NCBI GenBank assembly: GCA_964035575.1
Contig: OZ037836.1
Coordinates: 868,001 to 932,000 of the forward strand
Direction: 5' to 3'
Origin: Rhynchopus sp. YZ270_cl-10
Lineage: Eukaryota
Length of the DNA stretch: 64,000 bases
Part shown: positions 19,381-64,000 of the stretch, piece after piece
How the letters are laid out: every line of letters starts with the position of its first letter
Position numbering within the stretch: the stretch's first letter is position 1
The notes under the pieces: model-generated
The model's input: only the letters and a program-made list of their open reading frames with translations
Told to the model about the DNA's origin: nothing
Database searches by the model: none
Program-made: the position numbers and the translations under genes

Positions 19381-20298
19381 TCATTGTGCGTGTCTCCGTC
19401 GCTTCTGGCTTTGCTCGGGGGATTCGTCTCTGCTTCGTTTCGGACGTGTTTCAACCACAAGCTTACTCAGCTTCTTGTCCTTCCTCACTTCCTTGGACAC
19501 AACACTGCTGCAGCCGGAAAGGTAAATGCTCGTCAACGAAGTGCATCCCTCAGCAAATTGCGCAGCATTCGCCCAATTACACAAATCAATTGACGTCACA
19601 TTGCTGAGTGGTGATAAATATAGGGTTGTTAAGCTGCTGCAGTTCGCAAGGAACCACGTACCAACCTGCATCACATTGACGAGTGGAGATAAATCGATGG
19701 TCGTCAAGCTCGTGCAGCCGTTAAGAAAGCAGGTCTCGATCTGCGTCACATTGCTGAGTGGTGACAAATTCAGGATCGTTAAGCTGCTGCACTCCTCAAG
19801 GAAATATGCACCCACCTGCGTCAAATTGCTCAACCCAGAGAGGTCGATACTTGTCAACGAGGTGCAGTTGATCAGGAAGCTGTGTCCAATGCGAGTCACA
19901 ATGGACTCAGCACTGAGATCAAGTCTCGTCAACGAAGTGCATGCCAAGAAGCTATTCGGAATGACAGTCGCAACCTCCGCCTGCAGAAGCAAACACGCCA
20001 CCTCAGGATCCCTCACACTCTTCAACTTCTCGGCTGTGATGTCGGTCACACCCAACGCATGAAGCTCTGCAATGGCTTCTTGTTTCTGCGTTTTCGTGAG
20101 GATGATTGTGTCACCAGCACTCAGCTGCGTCATGTCCGATCCTGCTCCCATCGCTTCGTCTCCGAAACTCATGCAAAAGCCGTCTTCAGGCAACCCCATT
20201 GCAGACGCCACCTTCCGCCGCAAGCCCTCCACTGTGTCATCTTCACCCACCTCGACTGTGTGCTGATTCGTGTCGAAACCCTTGATGTTCAGGTCCAT
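19381..20298 (-). CDS. UBL-LRR-NLS family protein, copy 1 (305 aa, 4 internal LRRs)
   Basis: MDLNIKGFDTNQHTVEVGEDDTVEGLRRKV..LSAGDTIIL ubiquitin-like pattern, 25-aa LTxIDLSPLxNVTxIxxxFLxxCxx repeats, basic tail RPKRSR..KRRRH. Confidence 0.88.
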   Translation of the reverse strand: MDLNIKGFDTNQHTVEVGEDDTVEGLRRKVASAMGLPEDGFCMSFGDEAMGAGSDMTQLSAGDTIILTKTQKQEAIAELHALGVTDITAEKLKSVRDPEVACLLLQAEVATVIPNSFLACTSLTRLDLSAESIVTRIGHSFLINCTSLTSIDLSGLSNLTQVGAYFLEECSSLTILNLSPLSNVTQIETCFLNGCTSLTTIDLSPLVNVMQVGTWFLANCSSLTTLYLSPLSNVTSIDLCNWANAAQFAEGCTSLTSIYLSGCSSVVSKEVRKDKKLSKLVVETRPKRSRDESPEQSQKRRRHAQ

Positions 20299-22920
20299 GT
20301 CTTTGTTGTGGTTTTGTGTTCTGATCTCTGTGTGTGGTGGTGGGGTGTGGAGGACAACAAGCCTGCAGTCCTTTTCAAGAACCTTGCCAAAAGCTGTTTG
20401 GAGAAGGGCCCTCTCTCTCCCCGACCCACAACCCACAACCCCCGACTTCAGATCTCTCACCTCTCCACCCCCTCTCCCTGAACCAGCGCCCTTCACAGAC
20501 GTTCCCTCCTCACGAAAGCAAACCCACCTTGCAAGGACTGGACGACTTCAGCTCTCTACTGCGGGTGCCACTCTAGCGGTTTATTCTCTTGTCCTATTCT
20601 TCAGCATTCTAAGAATTTTGGTATTTGAAAACAAAAAGAAGGATGGGGAATTGGGACGCTTTCTTTTTAACAAACGATAGACTTCATGTGGGGTGAAGTG
20701 TTGCACCGCTTCGTCGAAGCAGTGCTGTATCGTATCCACAGAACACGGGGGCGGGAGGGGGGGGGAGGGTTTGAGAGTAAACAAAAATAAACTTCTTTTT
20801 ATTGACAACAGATGTGCACTCCGTATCCAAAAACAGAGGGGGGTTGGAGTCATAGGACGACAGTGCAGGGAATGACTTGACTTATGTTTCTTTTTTTTAC
20901 GACTTCACCGTGGTACGGCAAGTCAGGGTTGGGGTTTTGTTCGTTTCGGGGGCAAAAATATGTCAAAAGAAATTATGTAAGATGACCGACAAATCAATTT
21001 CCAAATTTTACTTTTTTCGTGGGTCACGACCCACCCACTAGGGTATCTTGACCTACGCACCCAGGGCAAGCTAGCCCTCTGCGGTGCCTCTGTTTGAACA
21101 CATCTTTTAAAAGCTAGAGTTTATACAGTGCGACACGACTCTGGGGTGGATGGTGTGCTATCTCGTGGTAAGCTGAGTCTGAGCTATTGTTAGGTTAGCC
21201 ACACTATATGTGCAAGAATGTACTGTATTCGTACAAAAAAAGATCGGGTCTTTTGTTTGTGCGCTCAAATCCGGGAAAACAAAAAGGTGAAAAAATGTGT
21301 TAAACTGAAGTACGGTTGTTGTGGTTAATTGCGTACTCAAAGGAAACAAGCAAGCTTCTGTTTTTTTTTCAATTCGTTTGGTTTGCCCTGCAGCGCTGCC
21401 TCCAATCTTTTTAGAATTGACAACAAGTTGTTTTATCAAAAAAAAAAAATTATCGACCATAAAAATGGTCGAACTAATTTGTGTGAATACGGTACCCCTC
21501 ATTAAGTTATCAAAACACACACACCGCGGTATGTGATATTACCCTCATAAGAATTGACCACAAAATGCTATCAACAAACGCAAGGTTTCTTCACAATGCG
21601 TATAAAAGTTATTTTATTTTCGTTCTTTTCTAAATGAAAAGAAGGCAAAGGGTTTGGCCGACGACCCCACAATAGCAAAAAATATTTTCTTTCCTTACTT
21701 CAAAGTTTTTTCTGTCAAGTGTTTTTGTCTGTTGGCAGAGAAGAAAACAGTTTACAATAAAAGACTCCTGCGTCGGTATTCTTTTTCACAGCAGAAAGTA
21801 GCACCACCTTTTAGCCTCACCAAAGGCTGCAAAAAGAAGTGTACCTTTTTTTGGTAAGTTTTGCAAAAACATAACAGAACAGATGTTTCATGCACAAATT
21901 GAAACTTCAAAGCTTCCCCTTCACAATGTGTATAACGTAAACACTTTTTTTTGGAAAAATAAGCCACGAACGCACCCACATTCATAGTGAGGTAATGTTG
22001 GGATCTTAGGAACTGCCCACACAACTGTTTTCAACACACAACACAGGTGGCTTCATTAGAAGCTCTGTGTGATGGGATGGGGTGGGATGGGGATAAAGGG
22101 ATATATGAGTGTGCAGTGATCCAGGACAACATCGCAGGCAGCTGGAGGAGGGGTGAAAATGCTCGGGAGGCTCGTTACTCTTTGCTTGTTGCTCAAAAGA
22201 CTATAAGCGGGGAGGGGAAGAGTAAAGGCCGTTTGTTGTCCGCTTCCACTCCAACCCTGCCATGAAAGGGACGCAGCGCGACGCATGAGGTGCGCACTAC
22301 GGACAGCAGCCTACTTTCCGCGGGGGTGAAGGCGGCGGCCTTCTGTCCCCAGGGGTGCAAAGTGTTTGTCCTAATAAAAAAAACCAGACAATTTTTTTTT
22401 TTGAGAAAAATTTTTTCCCGCCAACTGATCTGTGATAAAAAGGGAAAGAAGACTGGTGTGGCTGACGACCCCAGAATAGCAGAAAATAGCACAAAAAATA
22501 GCACCTCCGCAATTAGACTTAACATGGGTGGTGCTCCAGGAGGGGTCGAGATTGACAGGCCGCACAGGGACTCTATACACACACCCCCTGATATTGACAG
22601 GTCACCGACAGGTCGTTGACCGACTTCCGAAAGCACCAGTTAGAATTGTTGACATTAGACTTATTTCCGTTGAACGCAGCCCACAAGGTGAAACAAGATG
22701 TGTCGCAAAAGTAAAAATGATGTGAAAGGAAATGGAAAATTCGTAAACAAGTCAAATGTTGGCTTTCTCGTTTGGTTTCTAAACGCACCCTGTGTGAAAA
22801 AGCGAATAAAAACGAAAAAACAATGTTTTTTTTCTGAATGTGATGCTGTTGGGGTGGGCAGAATAATCCAAAAAGCTCCTGCATCGGTTTTCTTCAAAAA
22901 CAAACACCCACCCCCCCCTC

Positions 22921-26549: not shown

Positions 26550-27539
26550 TCATTGTGCGTGTCTCTGTCGCTTCTGGCTTTGCTCGGGGGATTCGTCTCT
26601 GCTTCGTTTCGGACGTGCTTCAACCACAAGCTTACTCAGCTTGCCGTTCCTCACTTCGTTGGACACAACACTGCTGCAGCCGGAAAGGTAAATGCTCGTC
26701 AACGAAGTGCAGCTTCCAGCAAATTCCGTAGTACAAGTAAAAGGATACACACGAATAAACGTCACGTTCCTGAGTGCTGATAAATCGATGATGGTTAAGC
26801 TGCTGCAGTTCGCAAGGAAGCCCGCACCCACCTGCGTCACGTTGCTGAGTGGCGACAAATCAAAGGTTGTTAAGTTCTTGCAGCTCGCAAGGAAATACGC
26901 ACCAACCTGCGTCACATTGCTGAGTGGTGATAACCCGATGGTAGTTAAGCTCGTGCAGCCGCAAAGAAAGTAGTCATTAATCTGCGTCACGTTCCTGAGA
27001 GGAGATAAATCAAGTGTCGCTAAGTTGCTGCACTTCACAAGGAAGGCCTCACCAACCTGCGTCACATTGCTCAACCCAGAGATGTCGATACTTGTCACCG
27101 AGGTGCAGCCTGCCAGGAACCAGTCTCCAATGTGAGTCACAATGGACTCAGCACTGAGATCAAGTCTCGTCAACGAAGTGCGTGACAAGAAGTAATTCGG
27201 AATGACAGTCGCAACCTCCGCCTGCAGAAGCAAACACGCCACCTCAGGATCCTTCACACTCTCCAACTTCTCGGCTGTGATGTCGGTCTCACCCAACGCA
27301 TGGAGCTCTGCAATGGCTTCTTGCTTCTGCGTTTTCGTGAGGATGATTGTGTCACCAGCACTCAGCTGCGTCATGTCCGCTCCTTCTCCCATCGCTTCGT
27401 CTCCGAAACTCATGCAAAAGCCGTCTTCAGGCAACCCCATTGCAGACGCCACCTTCCGCCGCAAGTCCTCCACTGTGTCATCTTCACCCACCTCGACTGT
27501 GTGCTGATTCGTGTCGAAACCCTTGATGTTCAGGTCCAT
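26550..27539 (-). CDS. UBL-LRR-NLS family protein, copy 2 (329 aa, 5 internal LRRs)
   Basis: Intact ORF with the same architecture as copy 1. Confidence 0.9.
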   Translation of the reverse strand: MDLNIKGFDTNQHTVEVGEDDTVEDLRRKVASAMGLPEDGFCMSFGDEAMGEGADMTQLSAGDTIILTKTQKQEAIAELHALGETDITAEKLESVKDPEVACLLLQAEVATVIPNYFLSRTSLTRLDLSAESIVTHIGDWFLAGCTSVTSIDISGLSNVTQVGEAFLVKCSNLATLDLSPLRNVTQINDYFLCGCTSLTTIGLSPLSNVTQVGAYFLASCKNLTTFDLSPLSNVTQVGAGFLANCSSLTIIDLSALRNVTFIRVYPFTCTTEFAGSCTSLTSIYLSGCSSVVSNEVRNGKLSKLVVEARPKRSRDESPEQSQKRQRHAQ

Positions 27540-28594
27540 GTCTTTGTTGTGGTTTTGTGTTCTGATCTCTGTGTGTGGTGGTGGGGTGTGGAGGACAAGC
27601 CTGCAGTCCTTTCAAGAACCTTTCCAAAAAACTGTCTGGAGAAGGGCCCTCTCTCTCCCCGACCCACAACCCACAACCCCCGACTTCAGATCTCTCTCCT
27701 CTCCACCCCCTCTCCCTGAACCAGCGCCCTTCACAGACGTTCCCTCCTCACGAAAGCAAACCCACCTTCCCCCACGCACCGTCACCAGCCCCGTTCTGCA
27801 CATCAAAATCCGCGCAGTCTCCGGGATTGAACAGGACATGCACTTCAAAAGCACATTGCCCTGAACACCCAGGAGAGGCACTACTAACTCAACCCCAAGA
27901 CTCCCGAAGCAGACAGTTTGACCGTACCTTAGAGTCCCCGTCTACCAGAGCCGTTGAGGTTCAAGAGGACCCACCCAAGCAGTCCGTAAAGACCCGCAGG
28001 ACAAAGGAGGGGATTGTTGGGGAACGTCATGTTCCCGAATCTGCGTTTTCGCAATTTGTTTTTAGGAACGTACGATGTAGTGTTCGAGAGTGGCAGTGAA
28101 AAAGAGGATTGCACGACGGTAGCGACACCGGACCGGGGCCACGTGAGGAGGAGATGGCAGATGGGAAGCAGGGTCTTTGCGTTTATTGGTTAGAAATGGG
28201 GTGGGGGAGAGTAAGAGGGCGGTGGCTTTAAGTAAGCACGTTGGCAGAGGAGGTATACAGAGCTCGTCGCGATACGCCAGCATGCGTGCAGGTGCCGTGT
28301 CCTGTGGGGAAGCCGACAAAGCTCTCAGCAATATGTGATGCAAGCCCACCCAATCCGTACCGTCACGCTGCCGAAGTCGAGCTGTGCGTTTGAATCATGA
28401 AAATGAAAGTGAAAGCACGTGATCAGTGCATCAGAGCACACAACGGAGCCCACTACACCTCACACCTCTTCGTGCAAGCTACCAAGAAGACACGTGGTGT
28501 CGGTTTCAGAGTTATGACTCACAGAAAAAAAAGGGGGGTTGGGAAGGGAAGGGAGGTACGTTGTGTGCTGCCCTGCCACCAACACACCACGTCG

Positions 28595-29529
28595 TCATTG
28601 TGCGTGTCTCTGTCGCTTCTGGCTTTGCTCGGGGTATTCGTCTCTGCTTCGTTTCGGACGTGCTTCAACCACAAGCTTACTCAGCTTCTTGCCGTTCCTC
28701 ACTTCGTTGGACACAACACTGCTGCAGCCGGAAAGGTAAATACTCGACAACAAAGTGCAGCGCGTAGCAAAATGCGTACTACGAGTATAAGTATTCAAAC
28801 CAATCGACGTCACGTTGCTGAGTGATGATAAAACTAGGGTTGTTAAGCTGCTGCAGTTCTGAAGGAAGCCTGCACCAACCTGCGTCACATTGCTGAGTGG
28901 CGACAAATCCAAGGTCGTTAAGTTCTTGCAGTTCGCAAGGAAATACGCACCAACCTGCGTCACATTGCTGTGTGGAGATAACTCGATGGTGCTTAAGCTC
29001 TTGCAGCCGTAAAGAAAGTTGTCATTAATCTGCGTCACGTTCCTGAGCGGTGAATACAGTGTCGCTAAGTTGCTGCACTCCTCAAGGAAGCACGAACCAA
29101 CCTTCGTCAAATTGCTCAAGTCACAATGGACTCAGCACTGAGATCAAGTCTCGTCAACGAAGTGTGTGCCAAGAACCAATGCGGAATGACAGTCGCAACC
29201 TCCGCCTGCAGAAGCAAACGCGCCACCTCGGGATCCTTCACACTCTCCAACTTCTCGGCTGTGATGTCGGTCACACCCAACGCATGAAGCTCTGCAATGG
29301 CTTCGTACTTCTGCGACTTCGTCTTCGTGAGGATGATTGTGTCACCAGCACTCAGCTGCGTCATGTCCGCTCCTTCTCCCATCGCTTCGTCTCCGAAACT
29401 CATGCAAAAGCCGTCTTCAGGCAACCCCATTGCAGTCGCCACCTTCCGCCGCAAGTCCTCCACTGTGTCATCTTCACCCACCTCGACTGCGTGCTGATTC
29501 GTGTCGAAACCCTTGATGTTCAGGTCCAT
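28595..29529 (-). pseudogene. UBL-LRR copy 3, frameshifted
   Basis: Compared with copy 6 it lacks 61 bp at ~29119 (ATTGCTCAA joined directly to GTCACAATGG) plus 3 bp, which splits it into ORFs 29116-29529 and 28595-29119. Confidence 0.88.
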
Positions 29530-29654: not shown

Positions 29655-29894
29655 ACCCACAACCCACAACCCACAACCCACAACCCACAACCCACAACCC
29701 ACAACCCACAACCCACAACCCACAACCCACAACCCACAACCCACAACCCACAACCCACAACCCACAACCCACAACCCACAACCCACAACCCACAACCCAC
29801 AACCCACAACCCACAACCCACAACCCACAACCCACAACCCACAACCCACAACCCACAACCCACAACCCACAACCCACAACCCACAACCCACAAC
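29655..29894. repeat. (ACCCACA)n / (GGGTTGT)n heptamer tract, ~34 units
   Basis: Perfect tandem about 125 bp upstream of the copy 3 ATG. Confidence 0.95.
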
Positions 29895-30182
29895 TTCAGA
29901 TCTCTCTCCTCTCCACCCCGTCTACCAGATCACGGTTGAGGTTCCAGAGGACCCACCCAAGCCGTCTGTAAAGACCCGCAGGACGAAGGAGGGCGCTGTT
30001 GGGGAACGTCACGTTCCCGAACCTGCGTTTTCGCAATTTGTTTTTAGGAACGCACGATGTAGTGTTCGAGAGTGACAGTGAAAAAGAGGATTGCACGACG
30101 GTAGCGTTGTCGGGGGTGCGACACCGGACCGGGGACACGTGAGGAGGAGATGGCAGATGGGAGCAGGGTCTTTGCGTTTAAT

Positions 30183-30580
30183 TAGGGGAGCCTATGCACC
30201 GGCTATTCCTTCATTTGGCTCGGAAAATTTGGCGCCTTTCGGCAAAAAAACCCAAAAATAGATGAAACTACCCTATATACCTCACCAAAAATCACTTTCC
30301 GCCGGGTTTCAGGCACTTTTGAGCCTTTTTTCTTCAAATTTTTTTTTGAAAAAAATCTGCAAAAAAACTGAAAATGGCAAAGACAAATCCAGTGTAAAAT
30401 GACAATTTTCAACAAAATGTGCGTTTAAATGAGTCAACGGGCAGCATTTTGTTTAAATTTTTGCTCATTTGAGTCCACAGAGTCCCAAAAAATGCATTGC
30501 CGGGGTCGTAGGTCAAAAAAGACTTAGAAATTTTAATTTAAAATCAAAAGGAGCCAAAATTACCGGTATAGGCTCCCCTA
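30183..30580. mobile_element. 398-bp MITE with 7-bp TSD
   Basis: GTTTAAT|TAGGGGAGCCTAT...ATAGGCTCCCCTA|GTTTAAT. The empty site CTTTGCGTTTAATGGTTAGAAAT is at ~37434. Confidence 0.92.
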
Positions 30581-31115
30581 GTTTAATGGTTAGAAATGGG
30601 GTGGGGGAGAGTAAGAGAGCGGTGGCTTTAAGTAAGCACGTTGGCAGAGGAGGTATACAGAGCTCGTCGCGATACGCCAGCATGCGTGCAGGTGCCGTGT
30701 CCTGTGGGGAAGCCGACAAAGCTCTCAGAAATATGCGATGTAAGCCCACCCAATCCGTACCGCCAGGCTGCCGAAGTCGAGCTGTGCGTTTGAATCATGA
30801 AAATGAAAGTGAAAGCACATCAGAGCACACAACGGAGCCCACTCGCCTCCGTCATTACACCTCACACCTCTTCGTGCAAGCTACCAAGAAGACAAGTGGT
30901 GTCGGTTTCAGAGTCATGACTCACAGAAAAAAGGGGGGTTGGGAAGGGAGGTACGTTGTAATGAATAAGACATGGGCTTTTGTGGGGATTCTTTTGCAGG
31001 ACAGAGTAAAATAACACAATGTGTGGACGTCTTGCTCAGCACAGCTCTCCTCTCGCACCAAGTAGTAGTCTGTGCCTCCGTCGCTTCTGGCTTTGCTCGG
31101 GGGATTCGTCTCTCT

Positions 31116-32057
31116 TCAGTTCGAACGTGCTTCAACCACAAGCTTCTTCAGCTTGCCGTGCCTCACTTCGTTGGACACAACACTGCTGCAGCCAGAAAGG
31201 TAAATGCTCGTCAACGAAGTGCAGTTCTCAGCAAATTGCGTACTGATAGAAGAAGCATGCGGATTCAAACGAATATGCGTCACCTTGCTGAGTGGTGATA
31301 AATCTAGGGTAGTTAATCTCCTGCAGTTCGCAAGGAAATATGCACCCACGTGCGTCACGTTGCTGAGTGGCGACAAATCTAAGGTTGTTAAGTTCTTGCA
31401 GCTCGCAAGGAAGCCCGCACCAACCTGCGTCACGTTGCTGAGTGGAGATAAATCGATGGTGGTTAAGCTCGTGCAGCCGTAAAGAAAGCTGGCATCAATC
31501 GACGTAACATTCCTGAGAGGAGATAAATCGAGGGTCGTTAAGCTGCTGCACTCTTGAAGGAAAAATGCACCCACCTGCGTCAAATTGCTCAACCCAGAGA
31601 TGTCGATACTTGTCAACGAGGTGCAGTGCATCAGGAAGCTGGGTCCAATGTGAGTCACAATGGACTCAGCACTGAGATCAAGTCTCGTCAACGAAGAGCT
31701 TGACAAGAACCCATTCGGAATGACAGTCGCAACCTCCGCCTGCAGAAGCAAACACGCCACCTCAGGATCCTTCACACTCTCCAACTTCTCGGCTGTGATG
31801 TCGGTCTCACCCAACGCATGAAGCTCTGCAATGGCTTCTTGCTTCTGCGTTTTCGTGAGGATGATTGTGTCACCAGCACTCAGCTGCGTCATGTCCGCTC
31901 CTTCTCCCATCGCTTCGTCTCCGAAACTCATGCAAAAGCCGTCTTCAGGCAACCCCATTGCAGACGCCACCTTCCGCCGCAAGTCCTCCACTGTGTCATC
32001 TTCACCCACCTCGACTGTGTGCTGATTCGTGTCGAAACCCTTGATGTTCAGGTCCAT
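31116..32057 (-). CDS. UBL-LRR copy 4 (313 aa, NLS tail lost)
   Basis: Intact through the LRRs and ends EARSN* at a TGA replacing the CGA codon of RPKR. Confidence 0.85.
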   Translation of the reverse strand: MDLNIKGFDTNQHTVEVGEDDTVEDLRRKVASAMGLPEDGFCMSFGDEAMGEGADMTQLSAGDTIILTKTQKQEAIAELHALGETDITAEKLESVKDPEVACLLLQAEVATVIPNGFLSSSSLTRLDLSAESIVTHIGPSFLMHCTSLTSIDISGLSNLTQVGAFFLQECSSLTTLDLSPLRNVTSIDASFLYGCTSLTTIDLSPLSNVTQVGAGFLASCKNLTTLDLSPLSNVTHVGAYFLANCRRLTTLDLSPLSKVTHIRLNPHASSISTQFAENCTSLTSIYLSGCSSVVSNEVRHGKLKKLVVEARSN

Positions 32058-33339
32058 GTCTTTGTTGTGGTTTTGTGTTCTGATCTCTGTGTGTGGTGGT
32101 GGGGTGTGGAGGACAACAAGCCTGCGGTCCTTTTCAAGAACCTTTCCAAAAAACTGTCTGGAGAAGGGCCCCTCTCCCCGACCCACAACCCACAACCCCC
32201 GACTTCAGATCTCTCACCTCTCCACCCCCTCTCCCTGAACCCGCGCCCTTCACAGACGTTCCCTCCTCACGAAAGCAAACCCACCTTCCCCTGACCCATG
32301 CACCGTCACCTGCCCCATTCTGCACATCAAAACCCGCACAGCCTCCACGATTGAACAGGACATGCACTTCAAAAGCACATTGCCCTGAACACCCATAGGA
32401 GAGGCACTACTAACTCAACCCCAAGACTCCCGAAGCAGACAGTTTGACCGTACCTTGGAGTACCCGTCTACCAGATCACGGTTGAGGTTCCAGAGGACCC
32501 ACCCAAGCCGTCCGTAAAGACCCGCAGGACAAAGGAGGGGATTGTTGGGGAACGTCACGTTCCCGAACCTGCGTTTTCGCAATTTGTTTTTAGGAACGCA
32601 CGATGTAGTGTTCGAGAGTGACAGTGAAAATGAGGATTGCACGACGGTAGTTTAGTCGGGAGTGCGACACCGGACCGGGGACACGTGAGGAGGAGATGGC
32701 AGATGGGAAGCAGGGTCTTTGCGTTTAATGGATAGAAATGGGGTGGGGGAGAGTAAGAGAGCGGTGGCTTTTAGTAAGCACGTTGGCAGAGGAGGTATAC
32801 AGAGCTCGTCGCGATACGCCAGCATGCGTGCAGGTGCCGTGTCCTGTGGGGAAGCCGCCAAAGCTCTCAGCAATATGTGATGCAAGCCCACCCAATCCGT
32901 ACCGTCACGCTGCCGAGTCGAGCTGTGCGTTTGAATCATGAAAACGAAAGTGAAAGCACGTGATCAGTGCATCAGAGCACACAACGGAGCCCACTCTCCT
33001 CCGTCATTACACCTCACACCTCTTCGTGCAAAGCTACCGAGAAGACACGTGGTGTCGGTTTCAGAGTTATGACTCAAAAAAGGGGGGTTGGGCGGGGAGG
33101 TACGTTGTGATGAATAAGACAATAGGTTTTTGTGGGGATTCTTTTGCAGGACAGAGTAACATAACACAATGTGTGGAACGTCTTGCTCAGCACAGCTCTC
33201 CTCTCGCACCAAGTAGTAGTCTGTGCCACGGTGAGCAAGACTGTGGCCCTCTTCTTCTCCGAACCAGAGGACGCAAGCAGACATACTGCCAGAGACCCTC
33301 CACCTCGGGGAGCTGCCCTGCCACCAACACACCACGTCG

Positions 33340-34338
33340 TCATTGTGCGTGTCTCTGTCGCTTCTGGCTTTTCTCGGGGGATTCGTCTCTGCTTCGTTTC
33401 GGACGTGCTTCAACCACAAGCTTACTCAGCTTCTTGTCCTTCCTCACTTCGTTGGACACAACACTGCTGCAGCCGGAAAGGTAAATGCTCGTCAACGACG
33501 TGCACCTTACAACAAATTCCGGAGTGATAGTAAAAGGATGCACACGAATAGACGTCACATTGCTGAGTGGTGATAAAACTAGGGTGGTTAAGCTGCTGCA
33601 GTTCTGAAGGAAGCCTGCACCAACCTGCGTCACCTTGCTGAGTGGCGACAAATCTAAGGTTGTTAAGTTCTTGCAGCTCGCAAGGAAATACGCACCAACC
33701 TGCGTCACATTGCTGAGTGGTGATAACCCGATGGTGGTTAAGCTCGTGCAGCCGGCAAGAAAGTAGTCATTAATCTGCGTCACGTTCCTGAGAGGAGATA
33801 AATCAAGTGTCGCTAAGTGGCTGCACTCCACAAGGAAGGCCTCACCAACCTGCGTCACATTGCTCAACCCAGAGATGTCGATACTTGTCACCGAGGTGCA
33901 GTTGTGCAGGAACCAGTCTCCAATGTGAGTCACAATGGACTCAGCACTGAGATCAAGTCTCGTCAACGAAGTGCGTGACAAGAAGTAATTCGGAATGACA
34001 GTCGCAACCTCCGCCTGCAGAAGCAAACACGCCACCTCAGGATCCTTCACACTCTTCAACTTCTCGGCTGTGATGTCGGTCACACCCAACGCATGAAGCT
34101 TTGCAATGGCTTCGTACTTCTGCGACTTCGTCTTCGTGAGGATGATTGTGTCACCAGCACTCAGCTGCGTCATGTCCGATCCTGCTCCCATCGCTTCGTC
34201 TCCGAAACTCATGCAAAAGCCGTCTTCAGGCAACCCCATTGCAGTCGTCACCTTCCGCCGCAAGCCCTCCACTGTGTCATCTTCACCCACCTCGACTGTG
34301 TGCTGATTCGTGTCGAAACCCTTGATGTTCAGGTCCAT
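33340..34338 (-). CDS. UBL-LRR-NLS copy 5 (332 aa)
   Basis: Intact from MDLNIK. The upstream ORF extension in the track is heptamer repeat. Confidence 0.88.
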   Translation of the reverse strand: MDLNIKGFDTNQHTVEVGEDDTVEGLRRKVTTAMGLPEDGFCMSFGDEAMGAGSDMTQLSAGDTIILTKTKSQKYEAIAKLHALGVTDITAEKLKSVKDPEVACLLLQAEVATVIPNYFLSRTSLTRLDLSAESIVTHIGDWFLHNCTSVTSIDISGLSNVTQVGEAFLVECSHLATLDLSPLRNVTQINDYFLAGCTSLTTIGLSPLSNVTQVGAYFLASCKNLTTLDLSPLSKVTQVGAGFLQNCSSLTTLVLSPLSNVTSIRVHPFTITPEFVVRCTSLTSIYLSGCSSVVSNEVRKDKKLSKLVVEARPKRSRDESPEKSQKRQRHAQ

Positions 34339-34461
34339 GTCTTTGTTGTGGTTTTGTGTTCTGATCTCTGTGTGTGGTGGTGGGGTGTGGAGGACAACAA
34401 GCCTGCGGTCCTTTTCAAGAACCTTTCCAAAAAACTGTCTGGAGAAGGGCCCCTCTCCCCG

Positions 34462-34722
34462 ACCCACAACCCACAACCCACAACCCACAACCCACAACCC
34501 ACAACCCACAACCCACAACCCACAACCCACAACCCACAACCCACAACCCACAACCCACAACCCACAACCCACAACCCACAACCCACAACCCACAACCCAC
34601 AACCCACAACCCACAACCCACAACCCACAACCCACAACCCACAACCCACAACCCACAACCCACAACCCACAACCCACAACCCACAACCCACAACCCACAA
34701 CCCACAACCCACAACCCACAAC
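34462..34722. repeat. (GGGTTGT)n heptamer tract, ~37 units
   Basis: Perfect tandem upstream of copy 5. Confidence 0.95.
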
Positions 34723-35010
34723 TTCAGATCTCTCTCCTCTCCACCCCGTCTACCAGATCACGGTTGAGGTTCCAGAGGACCCACCCAAGCCGTCCGTAAA
34801 GACCCGCAGGACGAAGGAGGGCGCTGTTGGGGAACGTCACGTTCCGGAACCTGCGTTTTCGCAATTTGTTTTTAGGAACGCACGATGTAGTGTTCGAGAG
34901 TGACAGTGAAAAAGAGGATTGCACGACGGTAGCGTTGTCGGGGGTGCGACACCGGACCGGGGACACGTGAGGAGGAGATGGCAGATGGGAGCAGGGTCTT
35001 TGCGTTTAAT

Positions 35011-35408
35011 TAGGGGAGCCTATGCACCGGCTATTCCTTCATTTGGCTCGGAAAATTTGGCGCCTTTCGGCAAAAAAACCCAAAAATAGATGAAACTACC
35101 CTATATACCTCACCAAAAATCACTTTCCGCCGGGTTTCAGGCACTTTTGAGCCTTTTTTCTTCAAATTTTTTTTTGAAAAAAATCTGCAAAAAAACTGAA
35201 AATGGCAAAGACAAATCCAGTGTAAAATGACAATTTTCAACAAAATGTGCGTTTAAATGAGTCAACGGGCAGCATTTTGTTTAAATTTTTGCTCATTTGA
35301 GTCCACAGAGTCCCAAAAAATGCATTGCCGGGGTCGTAGGTCAAAAAAGACTTAGAAATTTTAATTTAAAATCAAAAGGAGCCAAAATTACCGGTATAGG
35401 CTCCCCTA
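35011..35408. mobile_element. second copy of the 398-bp MITE at the paralogous site
   Basis: Same TIR, same GTTTAAT TSD and same flanks as 30183-30580. Confidence 0.92.
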
Positions 35409-35824
35409 GTTTAATGGTTAGAAATGGGGTGGGGGAGAGTAAGAGAGCGGTGGCTTTAAGTAAGCACGTTGGCAGAGGAGGTATACAGAGCTCGTCGCGA
35501 TACGCCAGCATGCGTGCAGGTGCCGTGTCCTGTGGGGAAGCCGCCAAAGCTCTCAGCAATATGCGATGTAAGCCCACCCAATCCGCACCGTCACGCTGCC
35601 GAAGTCGAGCTGTGCGTTTGAATCATGAAAATGAAAGTGAAAGCACGTGATCAGTGCATCAGAGCACACAACGGAGCCCACTCTCCTCCGTCATTACACC
35701 TCACACCTCTTCGTGCAAGCTACCAAGAAGACACGTGGTGTCGGTTTCAGAGTTATGACTCAAAAAAGGGGGGTTGGGAAGGGAGGTACGTTGTGTGCTG
35801 CCCTGCCACCAACACACCACGTCG

Positions 35825-36823
35825 TCATTGTGCGTGTCTCTGTCGCTTCTGGCTTTGCTCGGGGGATTCGTCTCTGCTTCGTTTCGGACGTGCTTCAACC
35901 ACAAGCTTACTCAGCTTCTTGCCGTTCCTCACTTCGTTGGACACAACACTGCTGCAGCCGGAATGGTAAATACTCGACAACGAAGTGCAGCGCGTAGCAA
36001 AATGCGTACTACGAGTATAAGTATTCAAAGCAATCGACGTCACGTTGCTGAGTGATGATAAAACTAGGGTTGTTAAGCTGCTGCAGTTCTGAAGGAAGCC
36101 TGCACCAACCTGCGTCACATTGCTGAGTGGCGACAAATCCAAGGTCGTTAAGTTCTTGCAGTTCGCAAGGAAATACGCACCAACCTGCGTCACATTGCTG
36201 TGTGGAGATAACTCGATGGTGCTTAAGCTCTTGCAGCCGTAAAGAAAGTTGTCATTAATCTGCGTCACGTTCCTGAGAGGAGATAAATAGAGTGTCGCTA
36301 AGTTGCTGCACTCCTCAAGGAAGCACGAACCAACCTGCGTCAAATTGCTCAACCCAGAGATGTCGATACTTGTCAACGAGGTGCAGTTGTACAGGAACCA
36401 GTCTCCAATGTGAGTCACAATGGACTCAGCACTGAGATCAAGTCTCGTCAACGAAGTGTGTGCCAAGAACCAATGCGGAATGACAGTCGCAACCTCCGCC
36501 TGCAGAAGCAAACACGCCACCTCAGGATCCTTCACACTCTTCAACTTCTCGGCTGTGATGTCGGTCTCACCCAACGCATGAAGCTCTGCAATGGCTTCGT
36601 ACTTCTGCGACTTCGTCTTCGTGAGGATGATTGTGTCACCAGCACTCAGCTGCGTCATGTCCGATCCTGCTCCCATCGCTTCGTCTCCGAAACTCATGCA
36701 AAAGCCGTCTTCAGGCAACCCCATTGCAGTCGCCACCTTCCGCCGCAAGCCCTCCACTGTGTCATCTTCACCCACCTCGACTGTGTGCTGATTCGTGTCG
36801 AAACCCTTGATGTTCAGGTCCAT
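35825..36823 (-). CDS. UBL-LRR-NLS copy 6 (332 aa)
   Basis: Intact. Closest to pseudogene copy 3. Confidence 0.88.
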   Translation of the reverse strand: MDLNIKGFDTNQHTVEVGEDDTVEGLRRKVATAMGLPEDGFCMSFGDEAMGAGSDMTQLSAGDTIILTKTKSQKYEAIAELHALGETDITAEKLKSVKDPEVACLLLQAEVATVIPHWFLAHTSLTRLDLSAESIVTHIGDWFLYNCTSLTSIDISGLSNLTQVGSCFLEECSNLATLYLSPLRNVTQINDNFLYGCKSLSTIELSPHSNVTQVGAYFLANCKNLTTLDLSPLSNVTQVGAGFLQNCSSLTTLVLSSLSNVTSIALNTYTRSTHFATRCTSLSSIYHSGCSSVVSNEVRNGKKLSKLVVEARPKRSRDESPEQSQKRQRHAQ

Positions 36824-36945
36824 ATCTTTGTTGTGGTTTTGTGTTCTGATCTCTGTGTGTGGTGGTGGGGTGTGGAGGACAACAAGCCTGCGGTCCTTTT
36901 CAAGAACCTTTCCAAAAACTGTCTGGAGAAGGGCCCCTCTCCCCG

Positions 36946-37157
36946 ACCCACAACCCACAACCCACAACCCACAACCCACAACCCACAACCCACAACCCAC
37001 AACCCACAACCCACAACCCACAACCCACAACCCACAACCCACAACCCACAACCCACAACCCACAACCCACAACCCACAACCCACAACCCACAACCCACAA
37101 CCCACAACCCACAACCCACAACCCACAACCCACAACCCACAACCCACAACCCACAAC
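36946..37157. repeat. (GGGTTGT)n heptamer tract, ~30 units
   Basis: Perfect tandem upstream of copy 6. Confidence 0.95.
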
Positions 37158-39290: not shown

Positions 39291-39415
39291 GTCTTTGTTG
39301 TGGTTTTGTGTTCTGATCTCTGTGTGTGGTGGTGGGGTGTGGAGGACAACAAGCCTGCAGTCCTTTTCAAGAACCTTGCCAAACTAAACTGTAGGAAGAA
39401 AGGCCCCCTCTCCCG

Positions 39416-48571: not shown

Positions 48572-49561
48572 TCATTGTGCGTGTCTCCGTCGCTTCTGGC
48601 TTTGCTCGGGGGATTCGTCTCTGCTTCGTTTCGGACGTGCTTCAACCACAAGCTTACTCAGCTCGCCGTTCCTCACTTCGTCGGACACAACACTGCTGCA
48701 GCCGGAAAGGTAAATGCTCGTCAACGAAGTGCAGTTCTCAGCAAAACCCGTAGTAGAAGTAAAAGGATTCAAACGAATGGACATCACGTTCCTGAGTGGT
48801 GATAAATCGAGGGTTGTTAAACTGCTGCAGTTCTGAAGGAAGCCTATATCAACCTGCGTCACGTTGCTGAGTGGAGATAAATCGATGTTGGTTAATCTCC
48901 TGCAGTCGTACAGAAAGCTGCCATCAATCTGCGTCACGTTGTTGAGTGGTGATAAATCTAGGGTTGTTAAGCTCGTGCAGGCGACAAGAAAGTCGTCATT
49001 AATCTGCGTCACGTTGCTGAATGGTGGTAACTCCAGGGTCGTTAAGTTGCTGCAGCCCGAAAGAAAATATCCACCCACCTTCATAACATTGCTCAACCCA
49101 GAGAGGTCGACACTTGTCAACGAGGTGCACTCTGCCAGAAAGTTGAGTCCAATGTGAGTCACAATGGACGCAGCACTGAGATCAAGTCTCGTCAACGAAG
49201 TGCGTGACAAGAAGCTATTCGGAATGAAAGTCGCAACCTCCGCCTGCAGAAGCAAACACGCCACCTCAGGATCCATCACACTCTCCAACTTCTCGGCTGT
49301 GATGTCGGTCACACCCAACGCATGAAGCTCTGCAATGGCTTCTTGTTTCTGCGTTTTCGTGAGGATGATTGTGTCACCAGCACTCAGCTGCGTCATGTCC
49401 GCTCCTTCTCCCATCGCTTCGTCTCCGAAACTCATGCAAAAGCCGTCTTCAGGCAACCCCATTGCAGACGCCACCTTCCGCCGCAAGCCCTCCACTGTGT
49501 CATCTTCACCCACCTCGACTGTGTGCTGATTCGTGTCGAAACCCTTGATGTTCAGGTCCAT
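48572..49561 (-). CDS. UBL-LRR-NLS copy 10 (329 aa)
   Basis: Intact ORF. Confidence 0.9.
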   Translation of the reverse strand: MDLNIKGFDTNQHTVEVGEDDTVEGLRRKVASAMGLPEDGFCMSFGDEAMGEGADMTQLSAGDTIILTKTQKQEAIAELHALGVTDITAEKLESVMDPEVACLLLQAEVATFIPNSFLSRTSLTRLDLSAASIVTHIGLNFLAECTSLTSVDLSGLSNVMKVGGYFLSGCSNLTTLELPPFSNVTQINDDFLVACTSLTTLDLSPLNNVTQIDGSFLYDCRRLTNIDLSPLSNVTQVDIGFLQNCSSLTTLDLSPLRNVMSIRLNPFTSTTGFAENCTSLTSIYLSGCSSVVSDEVRNGELSKLVVEARPKRSRDESPEQSQKRRRHAQ

Positions 49562-53533: not shown

Positions 53534-53582
53534 TTCGTCTGTTTGTACCCAGTAACCCTCCTGTTAGAGACGGCGGTCGAAT

Positions 53583-53619
<37 letters not shown>

Positions 53620-56239: not shown

Positions 56240-57139
56240 TCACTTCTGGCTTTGCTCGGGGGATTCGTCTCTGCTTCGTTTCGGACGTGCTTCAACCACA
56301 AGTTTACTCAGCTTCTCACGCTTCCTCACTTCGTCGGACACAACACTGCTGCAGCCGGAAAGGTAAATGCTCGTCAACGAAGTGCATCCCTCAGCAAATT
56401 GCGCAGCATTCGTCCAATTACACAAATCAATTGACATCACATTGCTGAGCGGAGATAAATCTAGGGTTGTTAAGCTGCTGCAGCTCGCAAGGAACCACGT
56501 ACCAACCTGCGTCACATTGACGAGTGGAGATAAATCGATGGTCGTTAAGATCTTGCAGCCGGAAAGAAAGCTGGCATCAATCGACGTAACATTGCTAAGT
56601 GGTGACAAATCCAGGGTTGTTAAGCTGATGCAGCTCGAAAGGAAGCTCGCACCCACCTGCGTCACTTTGCTCAACCCAGAGATGTCGATACTTGTCAACG
56701 AGGTGCACTGCATCAGGAAGCAGTCTCCAATGTGAGTCACAATGGACTCAGCACTGAGATCAAGTCTCGTCAACGAAGTGCGTGCCAAGAACCAATTCGG
56801 AATGACAGTCGCAACCTCCGCCTGCAGAAGCAAACACGCCACCTCAGGATCCTCCACCTCCTCCAACTTCTCGGCTGTGATGTCGGTCACACCCAACGCA
56901 TGAAGCTCTGCAATGGCTTCGTCCTTCTGCGTTTTTGTGAGGATGATTGTGTCACCAGCACTCAGCTGCGTCATGTCCGCTCCTTCTCCCATCGCTTCGT
57001 CTCCGAAACTCATGCAAAAGCCGTCTTCAGGCAACCCCATTGCAGTCGCCACCTTCCGCCGCAAGCCCTCCACTGCGTCATCTTCACCCACCTCGACTGT
57101 GTGCTGATTCGTGTCGAAACCCTTGATGTTCAGGTCCAT
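56240..57139 (-). CDS. UBL-LRR copy 11 (299 aa, second basic cluster lost)
   Basis: 4 internal LRRs. Ends QSQK*. Confidence 0.87.
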   Translation of the reverse strand: MDLNIKGFDTNQHTVEVGEDDAVEGLRRKVATAMGLPEDGFCMSFGDEAMGEGADMTQLSAGDTIILTKTQKDEAIAELHALGVTDITAEKLEEVEDPEVACLLLQAEVATVIPNWFLARTSLTRLDLSAESIVTHIGDCFLMQCTSLTSIDISGLSKVTQVGASFLSSCISLTTLDLSPLSNVTSIDASFLSGCKILTTIDLSPLVNVTQVGTWFLASCSSLTTLDLSPLSNVMSIDLCNWTNAAQFAEGCTSLTSIYLSGCSSVVSDEVRKREKLSKLVVEARPKRSRDESPEQSQK

Positions 57140-61262: not shown

Positions 61263-62327
61263 TCATTGTGCGTGTCTCCGTCGCTTCTGGCTTTGCTCGG
61301 GGGATTCGTCTCTGCTTCGTTTCGGACGTGCTTCAACCACAAGCTTACTCAGCTCGCCGTTCCTCACTTCGTTGGACACAACACTGCTGCAGCCGGAAAG
61401 ATAAATGCTCGTCAACGAAGTGCAGTACGCAGCAAATTGCGTAGTATTAGTCAAAATAAACAAACTAATTGACGTCACATTGCTAAGTGGTGATAAATCG
61501 ATGGTAGTTAAGCTCTGGCAGCCGTTAAGAAAGTTGTGATCAATCTGCGTCACGTTGTTGAGGGGTGATAAATCCAGGCTCGATAAGTTCTTGCAGTGCG
61601 CAAGGAACCACGCACCGACCTGCGTCACGTTGGTGAGTGGAGATAAATCGATGCTCGTTAAGCTCGTGCACATGGAAAGAAAGCTGTCATCAATCCGTGT
61701 CACGTTGCTGAGTGCTGATAAATCGATGGTGGTTAAGCTGATACAGCAGAAAAGAAACCTGTCCTCAACCTTCGTCACGTTGCTGAGTGGCGATAAATCC
61801 AGGGCCGTTAAGCTTTTGCAGTTCGCAAGGAAGCTCACACCAACCTGCATAACATTGCTCAACCCAGAGAGGTTGATACTTGTCAACGAGGTGCAGTCTG
61901 CCAGGAACCAGTCTCCAATGTGAGTCACAATGGACTCAGCACTGAGATCAAGTCTCGTCAACGAAGTGCCTGACAAGAAGTCATCAGGAATGACAGTCGC
62001 AACCTCCGCCTGCAGAAGCAAACACGCCACCTCAGGATCCCTCACACTCGCCAACTTCTCGGCTGTGATGTCTGTCTCACCCAACGCATGAAGCTCTGCA
62101 ATGGCTTCTTGCTTCTGCGTTTTCGTGAGGATGATTGTGTCACCAGCACTCAGCTGCGTCATGTCCGATCCTGCTCCCATCGCTTCGTCTCTGAAACTCA
62201 TGCAAAAGCCGTCTTCAGGCAACCCCATTGCAGTCGCCACCTTCTGCCGCATCGTCTCCGTTGTGTCATCCTTACCAACCTCGATCACGTGCGAGTTGTC
62301 GGCAAAATCCTTAATAGTTACGTCCAT
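61263..62327 (-). CDS. UBL-LRR-NLS copy 12 (354 aa, 6 internal LRRs, divergent UBL start)
   Basis: Starts MDVTIKDFADNSHVIEVGKDDTTETMRQKV, then matches the family sequence. Confidence 0.87.
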   Translation of the reverse strand: MDVTIKDFADNSHVIEVGKDDTTETMRQKVATAMGLPEDGFCMSFRDEAMGAGSDMTQLSAGDTIILTKTQKQEAIAELHALGETDITAEKLASVRDPEVACLLLQAEVATVIPDDFLSGTSLTRLDLSAESIVTHIGDWFLADCTSLTSINLSGLSNVMQVGVSFLANCKSLTALDLSPLSNVTKVEDRFLFCCISLTTIDLSALSNVTRIDDSFLSMCTSLTSIDLSPLTNVTQVGAWFLAHCKNLSSLDLSPLNNVTQIDHNFLNGCQSLTTIDLSPLSNVTSISLFILTNTTQFAAYCTSLTSIYLSGCSSVVSNEVRNGELSKLVVEARPKRSRDESPEQSQKRRRHAQ

Positions 62328-63499
62328 TTGTCTGCTTTTGTGTCGCTCTGTTGTGTGGGGTTGTAGTTGGGGCTGGAGTGGGTCGACATGGTGAAGGAAA
62401 AACAACACCTCACCAAAGCCCTTCCTTTGCAGGCAGACGTACAAATTGAATCATGCAGACAACCCTTGAAGGACGTCATATTGATGTTGCTTTTACGACT
62501 TTACGTCTTTTCCTTCTGTAGCATGAAAAGGATTCTGCCAACATTGAGTACAGACCTCTTCTGGGTACTCAGGCCATTGTCGAAGCATCCACAGTCCGCG
62601 AGGTTGCTACGAAATGCAAGACCAAGACACCTTGCAGATGCTCCAAGCACCAACGGGAAACACGCCTTCGCAAAAAATGGTGTATCAATTCTCCTTCTCA
62701 GCAGAACACCGTTCTATGAGAAAAGAAGCGTGACGGGAGGGGGTGAGAAAAGGTGGAGGTGGGGGCCAGCCTTTTGTTGGCAAAATATTGTCGTTGCACT
62801 TCGAGAAGAGGGACACTCCGAAGTGTTTATAGCCTTTTGTGGGAAATTCCAGCCTCTCCACCCCAGCAGAGACACAAAGACCCAGCTCCAGCAGGGAACC
62901 CCCCCGCATGCACATCCACTTCGTGCGCTGTGGCGAGCATCGCCTTCAGGAGCTCACGCCCGAATAAAGGCCTAAAAAAATCTGGCACCGAAGATGACTG
63001 AACAGCAGCAGAAGACGAAGGAGACCCTGCAGCTGAAGGTGGACGTTAAGAGCGCCGCCGATCACGAAAAAGAAAGAAATGTTTATAAGATGATCCTAAG
63101 CCTCTCGTGCTTAGTCACCTTAAGAAACAGGCAAAATAAATGCCTGCTCACGGCTAAGGAGCACCTCACGAAGATACCAAGAAGACAGTGAAAGACCACT
63201 TGGTCTCGGTTTCAGAGTCATTACTCAAAAAAAAAGGGGGTAGGTAAGGGAGGGGAGGTACGTTGTAATGAATAAGACATGGGCTTTTGTGGGGATTCTT
63301 TTGCAGCACTGAGTAAAATAACACAATGTGTGGAACATCTTGCTCAGCACAGCTCTCCTCTCGCACCAAGTAGTAGTCTGTGCCACGGTGAGCAAGACTG
63401 TGCCCCTCTTCTTCTCCGAACCAGAGGACGCAAGCAGACATACTGCCAGAGACCCTCCACCTCGGGGAGGTGCTGCCCTGCCACCAACACACCACGTCG

Positions 63500-64000
63500 T
63501 CATTGTGCGTGTCTCTGTCGCTTCTGGCTTTGCTCGGGGGATTCGTCTCTGCTGCGTTTCGGACGTGCTTCAACCACAAGCTTACTCAGCTCGCCGTTCC
63601 TCACTTCGTTCGACACAACACTGCTGCAGCCGGAAAGGTAAATGCTCCTCAACGAAGCGCAGTTCTCAACAAATTCCTTAGTACCAGACCAAGTATTCAA
63701 ACCAATCGACGTCACGTTCCTGAGTGGTGATAAATCGAGGGTCGTTAAGCTGCTACAGTTCTGAAGGAACCCTGCCTCAACCTGCGTCACATTGCTGAGT
63801 GGAGATAAATCGATGTTGGTTAAGTTGCTGCAGTCGTACAGAAAGCTGCCATCAATCTGCGTCACGTTGTTGAGTGGTGATAAATCGAGGGCGGTTAAGC
63901 TCGTGCAGCCGGCAAGAAAGGCGGGATCAATCTGCGTCAGGTTGCTGAGTGGAGATAACTCCAGTGTCGTTAAGCTGCTGCAGCTCCAAAGAAAATATGC
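63500..64000 (-). CDS. UBL-LRR-NLS copy 13, 5'-partial (runs off the window)
   Basis: LRRs, last-repeat loop and basic tail are present. Confidence 0.85.
   Translation of the reverse strand, partial: AYFLWSCSSLTTLELSPLSNLTQIDPAFLAGCTSLTALDLSPLNNVTQIDGSFLYDCSNLTNIDLSPLSNVTQVEAGFLQNCSSLTTLDLSPLRNVTSIGLNTWSGTKEFVENCASLRSIYLSGCSSVVSNEVRNGELSKLVVEARPKRSRDESPEQSQKRQRHAQ

What the first reader, a model, noticed from the sequence alone, without database searches (positions are those of the whole stretch)
19381..64000. Expanded UBL + variable-LRR + NLS gene family: candidate diversified intracellular recognition-and-degradation (immune-like) system
Seen: 13 co-oriented copies with a near-invariant ubiquitin-like N-terminus (no C-terminal GG, so probably not cleaved or conjugated) and a near-invariant helical linker (EAIAELHALG.TDITAEKL..V.DPEVACLLLQ). 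Each has 4-8 internal 25-aa LRRs, a constant cap and an RPKRSR-x8-KR(R/Q)RH tail. There is no signal peptide or TM segment. Known: integral UBL domains dock Rad23/Dsk2-type shuttles on the proteasome, while BspA/TpLRR proteins are usually surface ligand binders. Inference: a constant effector with a variable sensor, nuclear or cytosolic, fits a repertoire that binds diverse foreign proteins (virus, endosymbiont, transposon) and routes them to the proteasome. The linker could be UBA-like or an ankyrin half-repeat. I do not recognise this architecture from a named family.
Basis: partly seen in the sequence, partly recalled or inferred. Interest (0 to 1): 0.9.

Follow-up and report, generated by a model that had tools for sequence, protein, structure and literature searches.

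The report
Protist intracellular LRR sensor repertoire
Thirteen neighbouring genes, part of a family of at least 200 apparently from one eukaryotic genome, join a ubiquitin-like domain to leucine-rich repeats whose variable positions are under positive selection, and they likely form an inside-the-cell repertoire for recognising invaders, though probably not one that docks on the proteasome in the usual way.

Summary
The array is real: 13 minus-strand copies, 12 with the ubiquitin-like (UBL) start, each with 4-8 regular 25-aa repeats. Only 8 of 13 translate the full basic tail; one is frameshifted early, four lose the tail. The family is far larger than the window: 203 retrieved proteins carry UBL + helical cap + BspA/TpLRR repeats, on about 38 contigs, apparently one assembly, none named. 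Six positions per repeat are under positive selection (ratio 2.2, CI 1.6-3.1; 0 of 360 neutral simulations), and repeats are shuffled and duplicated. Relatives swap the address: bipartite NLS (96), CaaX-like ends (16), or N-terminal B-box pairs (17). The Ile44-equivalent is Ile in 2 of 208 and every UBL is acidic, against Rad23/Dsk2-type proteasome docking. The linker aligns with LRR N-caps, not UBA or ankyrin. The near-invariant header reflects recent duplication and conversion, not shown constraint. Best reading: an intracellular, compartment-addressed binder repertoire in a biological conflict, with the UBL as a constant handle for an unknown partner. Ligand, expression and degradation are untested. 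New variant of a known kind.

The parts
19381..20298 (-). copy 1, intact, 305 aa, 4 regular repeats, full tail
26550..27539 (-). copy 2, intact, 329 aa, 5 regular repeats, full tail (reference copy, P0001)
27333..27539 (-). copy 2 residues 1-69: ubiquitin-like domain, acidic, Ser at the Ile44 position, no C-terminal GG
27201..27332 (-). copy 2 residues 70-113: three-helix linker, best read as N-terminal cap of the solenoid
26622..27200 (-). copy 2 residues 114-306: BspA/TpLRR-type solenoid (one irregular, five regular 25-aa units, capping unit); positions 3,4,6,21,24,25 of each unit hypervariable
26553..26615 (-). copy 2 residues 309-329: two basic clusters 8 residues apart, predicted bipartite NLS
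   Evidence: sequence; (spacer 8 in 91 of 92 scored)
27569..27570 (-). AG 31 nt upstream of the ATG, same place in copies 1-10; candidate trans-splice acceptor
   Evidence: one contig of run X1 stops here with 23 unaligned letters; weak
28595..29529 (-). copy 3, pseudogene: 61-nt deletion after the first repeat strand, frame stops at 29116
31116..32057 (-). copy 4, 313 aa, 5 repeats, tail lost by frame change
33340..34338 (-). copy 5, intact, 332 aa, 5 repeats, full tail
35825..36823 (-). copy 6, intact, 332 aa, 5 repeats, full tail
38124..39290 (-). copy 7, 388 aa, 8 repeats (internal 225-nt duplication), stops after RPK
40342..41334 (-). copy 8, intact, 330 aa, 5 repeats, full tail
46566..47462 (-). 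copy 9, 298 aa, 4 repeats, stops before second basic cluster
48572..49561 (-). copy 10, intact, 329 aa, 5 repeats, full tail
56240..57139 (-). copy 11, 299 aa, 4 repeats, stops before second basic cluster
61263..62327 (-). copy 12, intact, 354 aa, 6 repeats, full tail; divergent 5' flank and first third of UBL (chimeric)
63500..64000 (-). copy 13, 3' part only (cut by window end), at least 4 repeats, full tail
29655..41680 (.). five (ACCCACA)n arrays of 30-45 units just upstream of copies 3, 5, 6, 7, 8 (29655-29894, 34462-34722, 36946-37157, 39416-39727, 41460-41680), part of the duplicated unit

Best explanation
These genes are a tandem sample of a family of at least 200 paralogs whose repeat positions are under positive selection, and they likely act as intracellular binders of changing foreign targets, each predicted to be sent to the nucleus or to membranes by its tail and likely to hand the bound target to a common, still unknown partner through the ubiquitin-like domain. 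Shown: architecture, family size, repeat shuffling, selection on six positions per repeat, alternative tails. Predicted: fold, N-cap role of the linker, NLS and CaaX function. The likely outcome is sequestration or signalling; disposal by the proteasome is possible but not indicated. New specificities arise by tandem duplication, conversion between copies and gain or loss of whole repeats, with frequent gene death.
For: Family size: 203 stored proteins with header plus at least two repeats; 543 clusters matched the header at E<=1e-8, an upper guide only. Selection: 77 amino-acid-changing steps on 51 sites at the six positions against 52 silent steps on 76 sites, ratio 2.19 (CI 1.60-3.08); core 0.19, canonical strand 0.64; 0 of 360 neutral simulations with frequent genealogy change reached it, maximum 1.73; pairwise estimate 1.94 (CI 1.43-2.75). 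The positions were picked on protein entropy and hold on 524 units of 126 proteins not encoded in the window; 17-20 residue types occur at each, with 29-31% aromatics at positions 3 and 25. Mosaic copies and an exact internal duplication in copy 7. Tails: 96 bipartite basic, 26 first cluster only, 16 CaaX-like against 2.1 expected among 64, 17 with N-terminal B-box pair, 48 other. All three address types point to the inside of the cell. Comparable fast-evolving intracellular LRR families are proposed as pathogen receptors in Ectocarpus (PMC3341825, abstract).
Against: No ligand, partner, localisation or phenotype is known. Transcription is not shown: no holder is on record as RNA, and the one guessed-RNA run gives only a weak hint. 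5 of 13 copies are damaged. Hypervariable positions are a general habit of this repeat class, also in bacterial surface proteins (PMC10392669, passages) and FNIP proteins (PMC9525666, passages), so they show an arms race but not who is recognised. Entamoeba BspA proteins without signal peptide still reach the cell surface (PMC5349171, passages). The header shows no significant purifying selection inside the window. Many 'other' tails may be frameshift products of automatic gene calls, and 8 of the 16 CaaX-like ends are one related group.
Confidence: 0.55

Rival explanations
1. Proteasome adaptors: the LRR catches a target and the protein delivers it for degradation, either as a Rad23/Dsk2-type shuttle or, more plausibly, midnolin-style with the UBL on Rpn11 and the basic C-terminal helix on Rpn1.
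For: Same order of parts as midnolin: UBL, substrate-binding domain, C-terminal helix holding the NLS, which also binds Rpn1 (PMC12088389 and 10.1101/2025.02.22.639686, passages). The model has a helix at 318-328. B-box forms recall TRIM proteins. F-box plus FNIP-repeat fusions are thought to select proteins for degradation (PMC9525666).
Against: Ile44 position is Ile in 2 of 208; positions 42, 47, 66 are about 50% conserved; all UBLs are acidic. Midnolin needs a Gly-containing extension after the UBL in the Rpn11 groove; here the last strand runs straight into the cap helix with no Gly. The full tail is present in only 96 of 203. No RING, F-box or UBA found.
Confidence: 0.18
2. Exported effectors of Crinkler type: the UBL is a translocation header and the NLS works in the nucleus of a prey, host or competitor cell.
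For: Crinklers have a Ubl header without a true signal peptide, a variable payload and nuclear targeting (PMC5289972, passages). The same header is fused to other payloads: a P-loop NTPase-like domain in P0291/P0330 (Pfam AAA_16 E 0.01-0.09, weak), a different repeat in P0246 and P0309.
Against: 201 of 243 header-bearing proteins carry LRRs and no enzyme; no LXLFLAK or HVLVxxP motif in the header; CaaX and B-box forms fit resident proteins; most non-LRR fusions look like truncations or retroelement insertions.
Confidence: 0.14
3. Surface or feeding adhesins like other eukaryotic BspA families, exported without a signal peptide.
For: PF13306 in 84 of 84 members; best fold match is T. pallidum TpLRR (Z 17.2, rmsd 2.9, 191 aligned); Trichomonas has 911 BspA-like genes (PMC2843621, passages); Entamoeba members lack signal peptides yet are on the surface.
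Against: A conserved bipartite basic tail with fixed 8-residue spacing, a UBL and zinc-binding B-boxes are intracellular features; only 1 of 201 has a hydrophobic tail by my scan.
Confidence: 0.08
4. Neutral or selfish amplification of a gene in a duplication-prone region, with no repertoire function.
For: 5 of 13 copies damaged; header ratio not distinguishable from 1; microsatellites in the duplicated unit; retroelement insertions in relatives.
Against: Core positions are under strong purifying selection (0.19) and six positions under positive selection (2.19) in the same repeats; header core residues are 95-100% conserved over 208 proteins.
Confidence: 0.05

Closest known systems
Eukaryotic BspA-like (TpLRR) families of Trichomonas and Entamoeba (PMC2843621, PMC5349171; passages)
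   Same: Same repeat class, hundreds of paralogs, many without signal peptide, some with CaaX.
   Different: Here a fixed UBL plus cap header, an NLS-type tail in about half and B-box forms; 'ubiquitin' does not occur in the main text of the Trichomonas paper.
Midnolin (PMC12088389; 10.1101/2025.02.22.639686; passages)
   Same: UBL, binding domain, C-terminal basic helix with NLS.
   Different: Described as a single adaptor with a Catch domain; needs a Gly extension after the UBL; no sequence relation seen here.
Rad23/Dsk2 UBL-UBA shuttles
   Same: Integral N-terminal UBL without GG.
   Different: Ile44 patch lost, UBL acidic, no UBA, no flexible linker.
Crinkler/CR effectors (PMC5289972, passages; the original 2016 paper was not held)
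   Same: Ubl header, no signal peptide, nuclear address, large recombining family.
   Different: Payload is a binding solenoid, not an NTPase/nuclease toxin; Crinkler motifs absent.
Ectocarpus LRR-ROCO and NB-ARC-TPR candidate receptors (PMC3341825, abstract)
   Same: Intracellular repeat family with birth-and-death, repeat shuffling and diversifying selection.
   Different: No GTPase or NB-ARC switch; repeats are not exons here.
FNIP/FGxxFN and other hypervariable LRR arrays: CroV, Megavirus, Dictyostelium, Flavobacterium psychrophilum (PMC9525666, PMC10392669; passages)
   Same: Variable pair in a Gxx-F motif at the edge of the solenoid; tandem arrays; variable repeat number.
   Different: Those carry F-box, kinase or secretion signals, not a UBL-cap header.
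Unnamed Atlas clusters of ubiquitin + DUF285 (BspA-family) repeat proteins
   Same: UBL joined to a BspA-family repeat; clusters of 50-76 members.
   Different: Scores 0.82-0.85 (leads only), DUF285 repeat type, uncharacterised; shows that the domain pairing is not unique.

Membership tests
Rad23/Dsk2 UBL-UBA shuttle | N-terminal ubiquitin-like fold | tested here: met
   (Dsk2 UBL 2bwe Z 11.2, rmsd 1.6, 70 aligned)
Rad23/Dsk2 UBL-UBA shuttle | L8/I44/V70-type hydrophobic patch | tested here: not met
   gap-free alignment to ubiquitin 1-58; Ser/Gly/Cys in 190 of 208, Ile in 2; position 8 stays hydrophobic
Rad23/Dsk2 UBL-UBA shuttle | UBA domain | tested here: inconclusive
   no Pfam or PDB sequence hit for the linker; no UBA among 25 of 34 families shown for 84 members; the linker was not fold-searched alone
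Rad23/Dsk2 UBL-UBA shuttle | binds Rpn1/Rpn10/Rpn13 | not testable with these tools
   host receptors not available
Midnolin-like adaptor | Gly-containing extension after the UBL that enters the Rpn11 groove | tested here: not met
   last strand 64-68 followed at once by helix 71-81, no Gly; requirement
Midnolin-like adaptor | C-terminal NLS-bearing helix that binds Rpn1 | tested here: inconclusive
   helix 318-328 predicted, pLDDT 72-84; binding not testable; tail complete in 96 of 203
BspA/TpLRR proteins | TpLRR-type repeats and solenoid fold | tested here: met
   PF13306 in 84 of 84; 6mlx Z 17.2; the unit is 25 aa and also resembles PARCEL repeats (TIGR02167 30.6 bits against cut-off 30 in P0125)
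BspA/TpLRR proteins | surface export signal (signal peptide or TM) | tested here: not met
   starts with the UBL; hydropathy scan and model; no dedicated predictor run
Crinkler/CR effectors | Ubl header with LXLFLAK and HVLVxxP motifs | tested here: not met
   fold present, motifs absent in the 14 aligned headers
Crinkler/CR effectors | enzymatic toxin payload (NTPase, REase, kinase) | tested here: not met
   LRR only in 201 of 243; a weak NTPase match in 2 relatives
Crinkler/CR effectors | translocation into another cell | not testable with these tools
   needs an experiment
TRIM/RBCC | B-boxes and coiled coil | tested here: inconclusive
   absent from window copies; B-box pattern in 17 of 203 relatives, Pfam zf-B_box E 3e-5 to 0.02, mostly below cut-off; coiled coil judged by eye only
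TRIM/RBCC | RING domain | tested here: not met
   no RING hit in the 11 B-box proteins scanned
F-box/LRR (FBXL, F-box-FNIP) | F-box | tested here: inconclusive
   no Pfam hit; linker not fold-searched alone

The most novel reading that the evidence does not exclude
A protist has built a several-hundred-gene innate immune repertoire from a bacterial-type adhesin repeat: TRIM-like B-box forms, nuclear forms and membrane-anchored forms share one UBL header that couples any recognised viral, bacterial or transposon protein directly, without ubiquitination, to a common disposal or alarm machine through a non-canonical UBL surface.
Probability: 0.2. Interest if true: 0.88.

Novelty: new variant of a known kind. 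Interest (0 to 1): 0.62.

Why it matters
Almost nothing is established about intracellular non-self recognition in free-living protists. A single-exon, soluble, 300-aa family with six selected positions per repeat, swappable addresses and one shared header makes the question testable: pull down with the header to find the effector, with single paralogs to find the ligands. It would extend the constant-adaptor, variable-sensor logic of NLR, TRIM and F-box families to a new chassis, and the solenoid is a natural binder scaffold.

Tried and rejected
Tree-based M8 against M8a was significant for the repeats (2dL 48.2; 13% of sites, omega 4.6) but also for the header (2dL 31.5), where conversion is evident, so I do not rely on it. 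Expression: no RNA holder listed. Run X1 (RNA by guess) has no cover on the flanks of copy 2 where X2 and X4 do, but it also covers high-copy non-coding repeats and 18 of its 27 contigs are under 90% alike; the letters of the loose end at 27569 were not shown, so a spliced leader is not demonstrated. Summed depth over the UBL in X2 and X4 is over a thousand times that of a neighbouring unique ORF, but the tool states this is no copy number. Header searches of viral and prokaryotic contigs found 0 of 99 and 0 of 384 pattern matches; the one metagenome hit of 346 (L001) is an unrelated bacterial peptidase-like ORF. BFVD and phage searches gave only generic LRR or ubiquitin matches. Rfam: none. 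A B-box clade at the root was seen with 12 proteins but not recovered with 17, so no order of events is claimed. The wide fold search of the header model and the complex prediction (UBL against cap plus LRR) were not available. The lower linker pLDDT in the header-only model (59-65 against 93-96) is confounded by a shallower alignment (14 against 84). Literature: ten searches listed no paper on this architecture; the library lacks most subscription papers, and one preprint's supplements were closed.


Full report
Observation. ORF listing and tblastn with each part of copy 2 find 13 copies on the minus strand between 19381 and 64000, 12 with UBL and linker, the last cut by the window. The in-frame copies have 4-8 regular 25-aa units plus an irregular first unit and a capping unit. 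The duplicated unit is about 1.3-2.2 kb at 88-94% identity, and unrelated sequence interrupts the array. The tail is translated whole in 8 of 13; copy 3 is frameshifted by a 61-nt deletion, copy 4 loses the tail, and copies 7, 9 and 11 have TGA where others have CGA.

Anatomy. The AlphaFold model of copy 2 (84-sequence alignment) has pLDDT 93.3 and pTM 0.82. Residues 1-70 match ubiquitin at about 1.5 A. The best whole-library match is T. pallidum TpLRR (Z 17.2, rmsd 2.9, 191 aligned) over model residues 71-301; internalin and YopM matches also start at 70-71. The three-helix linker therefore sits where those proteins have their N-terminal cap. It has no Pfam or PDB sequence match, and no UBA, ankyrin or F-box family appears among the 25 of 34 families shown for 84 members. 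A UBA-like fold is not excluded because the linker was not fold-searched alone.

The UBL. It aligns to ubiquitin 1-58 without gaps. The Ile44 position is Ser 147, Gly 33, Cys 10, Ile 2, other 16 of 208; positions 42, 47 and 66 are about half conserved, Lys48 is mostly Glu, and net charge is -3 to -13 in all 208. Rpn1 binds ubiquitin through L8/I44/V70 (PMC8405992, passages). The conserved residues lie in the core and around helix 1. So the face that shuttle factors use is the one that drifts.

Family. A search with copy 2 gave 672 hits among 3084 candidates; the 120 listed all carry PF13306, 112 from ENA without names and 8 from the window. A header profile gave 543 clusters at E<=1e-8 among 7994 scored; polyubiquitins can score in this range, so this is an upper guide. 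A full HMMER scan of 1.84 billion representatives returned, in its best 150, either multi-ubiquitin proteins or this family. All 26 family or header-bearing relatives looked up are ENA-only and unnamed. By eye they lie on about 38 contigs, 49 of the first 120 on the window's own 2.16-Mb contig. A multicopy ORF of the window has close copies on four of the same contigs, which points to one assembly. Of 243 stored header-bearing proteins, 201 carry LRRs. Of 203 classified, 96 have the two basic clusters, 26 the first only, 16 a CaaX-like end (2.1 expected among 64; 5 fit a strict pattern against 0.0 expected), 17 an N-terminal B-box pair, 48 other. Labels cluster on the tree more than shuffles, but the root is not settled.

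Selection. Entropy across 469 units singles out positions 3, 4, 6, 21, 24 and 25, confirmed on 524 units from proteins not encoded in the window. These flank the IGxxFLxxC segment, not the canonical LxxLxL strand, which is conserved. Pairwise pN/pS at these positions is 1.94 (CI 1.43-2.75). A count that takes each distinct codon once per column, and so ignores homoplasy from conversion, gives 2.19 (CI 1.60-3.08), against 0.19 for the core, 0.64 for the canonical strand and 0.78 (CI 0.44-1.48) for the header. None of 360 neutral simulations reached 2.19; omega 3-5 reproduced it. Copies are mosaics, and copy 7 has an internal duplication in which units 2 and 5 are identical. The header's sameness is matched by low silent divergence and 37 of 91 incompatible site pairs, so it reflects recent exchange; long-term constraint is seen only in the wider family.

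Organism and expression. The sequence is eukaryotic. Single-exon co-oriented genes and a possible trans-splice junction suggest a euglenozoan, perhaps a diplonemid; this is my inference (about 0.7), helped by the description of unidirectional clusters and spliced leaders in PMC10161547 (passages). One contig of a run guessed to be RNA aligns up to the G of the AG 31 nt before the ATG and carries 23 further letters that were not shown: a weak hint only.

Mechanism. The best-supported reading is an intracellular repertoire of binders in a biological conflict: variable stripe, constant header, swappable address (0.55). Crinkler-like export (0.14), surface adhesin (0.08) and neutral amplification (0.05) follow.

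Novelty. Each element has precedent: BspA expansions, hypervariable LRR arrays, candidate algal receptors, and unnamed ubiquitin + DUF285 clusters in the Atlas. The main text of the Diplonema genome paper has no occurrence of 'leucine-rich', 'LRR' or 'ubiquitin', and the supplement rows shown list only small LRR groups (first two places per term seen); a 2026 diplonemid preprint has none either (main text only). Ten searches listed no description of this architecture. That TRIM proteins are restriction factors with B-boxes and a variable domain is partly recalled and partly from search listings. I rate it a new variant of a known kind, interest 0.62.

Noticed in passing
window 58952-60958 (-): 668-aa gene inside the array with a weak ubiquitin-like N-terminus (PF00240 E 0.05) and DUF4246 (E 1e-71, 2OG-Fe(II) oxygenase-like hint); a different UBL, not the family header.
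   Followed up: partly
window 6829-8745, 11539-13380, 14502-16457 (-): Three tandem multi-TM genes, variable at the N-terminus and near-identical after it; no Pfam hit, only weak class III adenylate cyclase matches (E 0.28-0.37).
   Followed up: partly
window 1943-2875 (+): 310-aa ORF without family hit; 14 cluster members, the identical protein on 8 contigs: probably part of an active mobile element.
   Followed up: partly
P0122, P0298, P0307: Family headers interrupted right after the UBL by retroelement-like sequence (RVT_1 in P0298, OTU in P0307; P0122 and P0298 end alike); 12 of 29 truncated headers stop at profile position 72-73, a possible insertion or frameshift hot spot.
   Followed up: partly
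P0291, P0330: Family UBL fused to a P-loop NTPase-like domain (AAA_16 E 0.01-0.09), a Crinkler- or STAND-like layout.
   Followed up: partly
P0121: Three ubiquitin-like stretches, a B-box, then the standard header and LRRs in one 932-aa ORF.
   Followed up: no
window 38124-38126, 46566-46568, 56240-56242: Three tail-truncating stops are all TGA where other copies have CGA; 9 of 162 family proteins end at the same QSQK. CpG decay or a spreading half-NLS allele.
   Followed up: partly
window 25469-26269, 44311-44495, 51653-52133: Segments bounded by inverted repeats of 31-117 nt, the first at very high depth in runs X2 and X4: likely small non-autonomous transposons.
   Followed up: no
window 9559-10671, 52845-53534: Minisatellites of about 59-nt and 27-nt units.
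   Followed up: no
window 3-1628 (+), 24522-25310 (-): A 5'-open ORF ending in C2H2 zinc fingers, and a 262-aa orphan ORF with low even depth.
   Followed up: no
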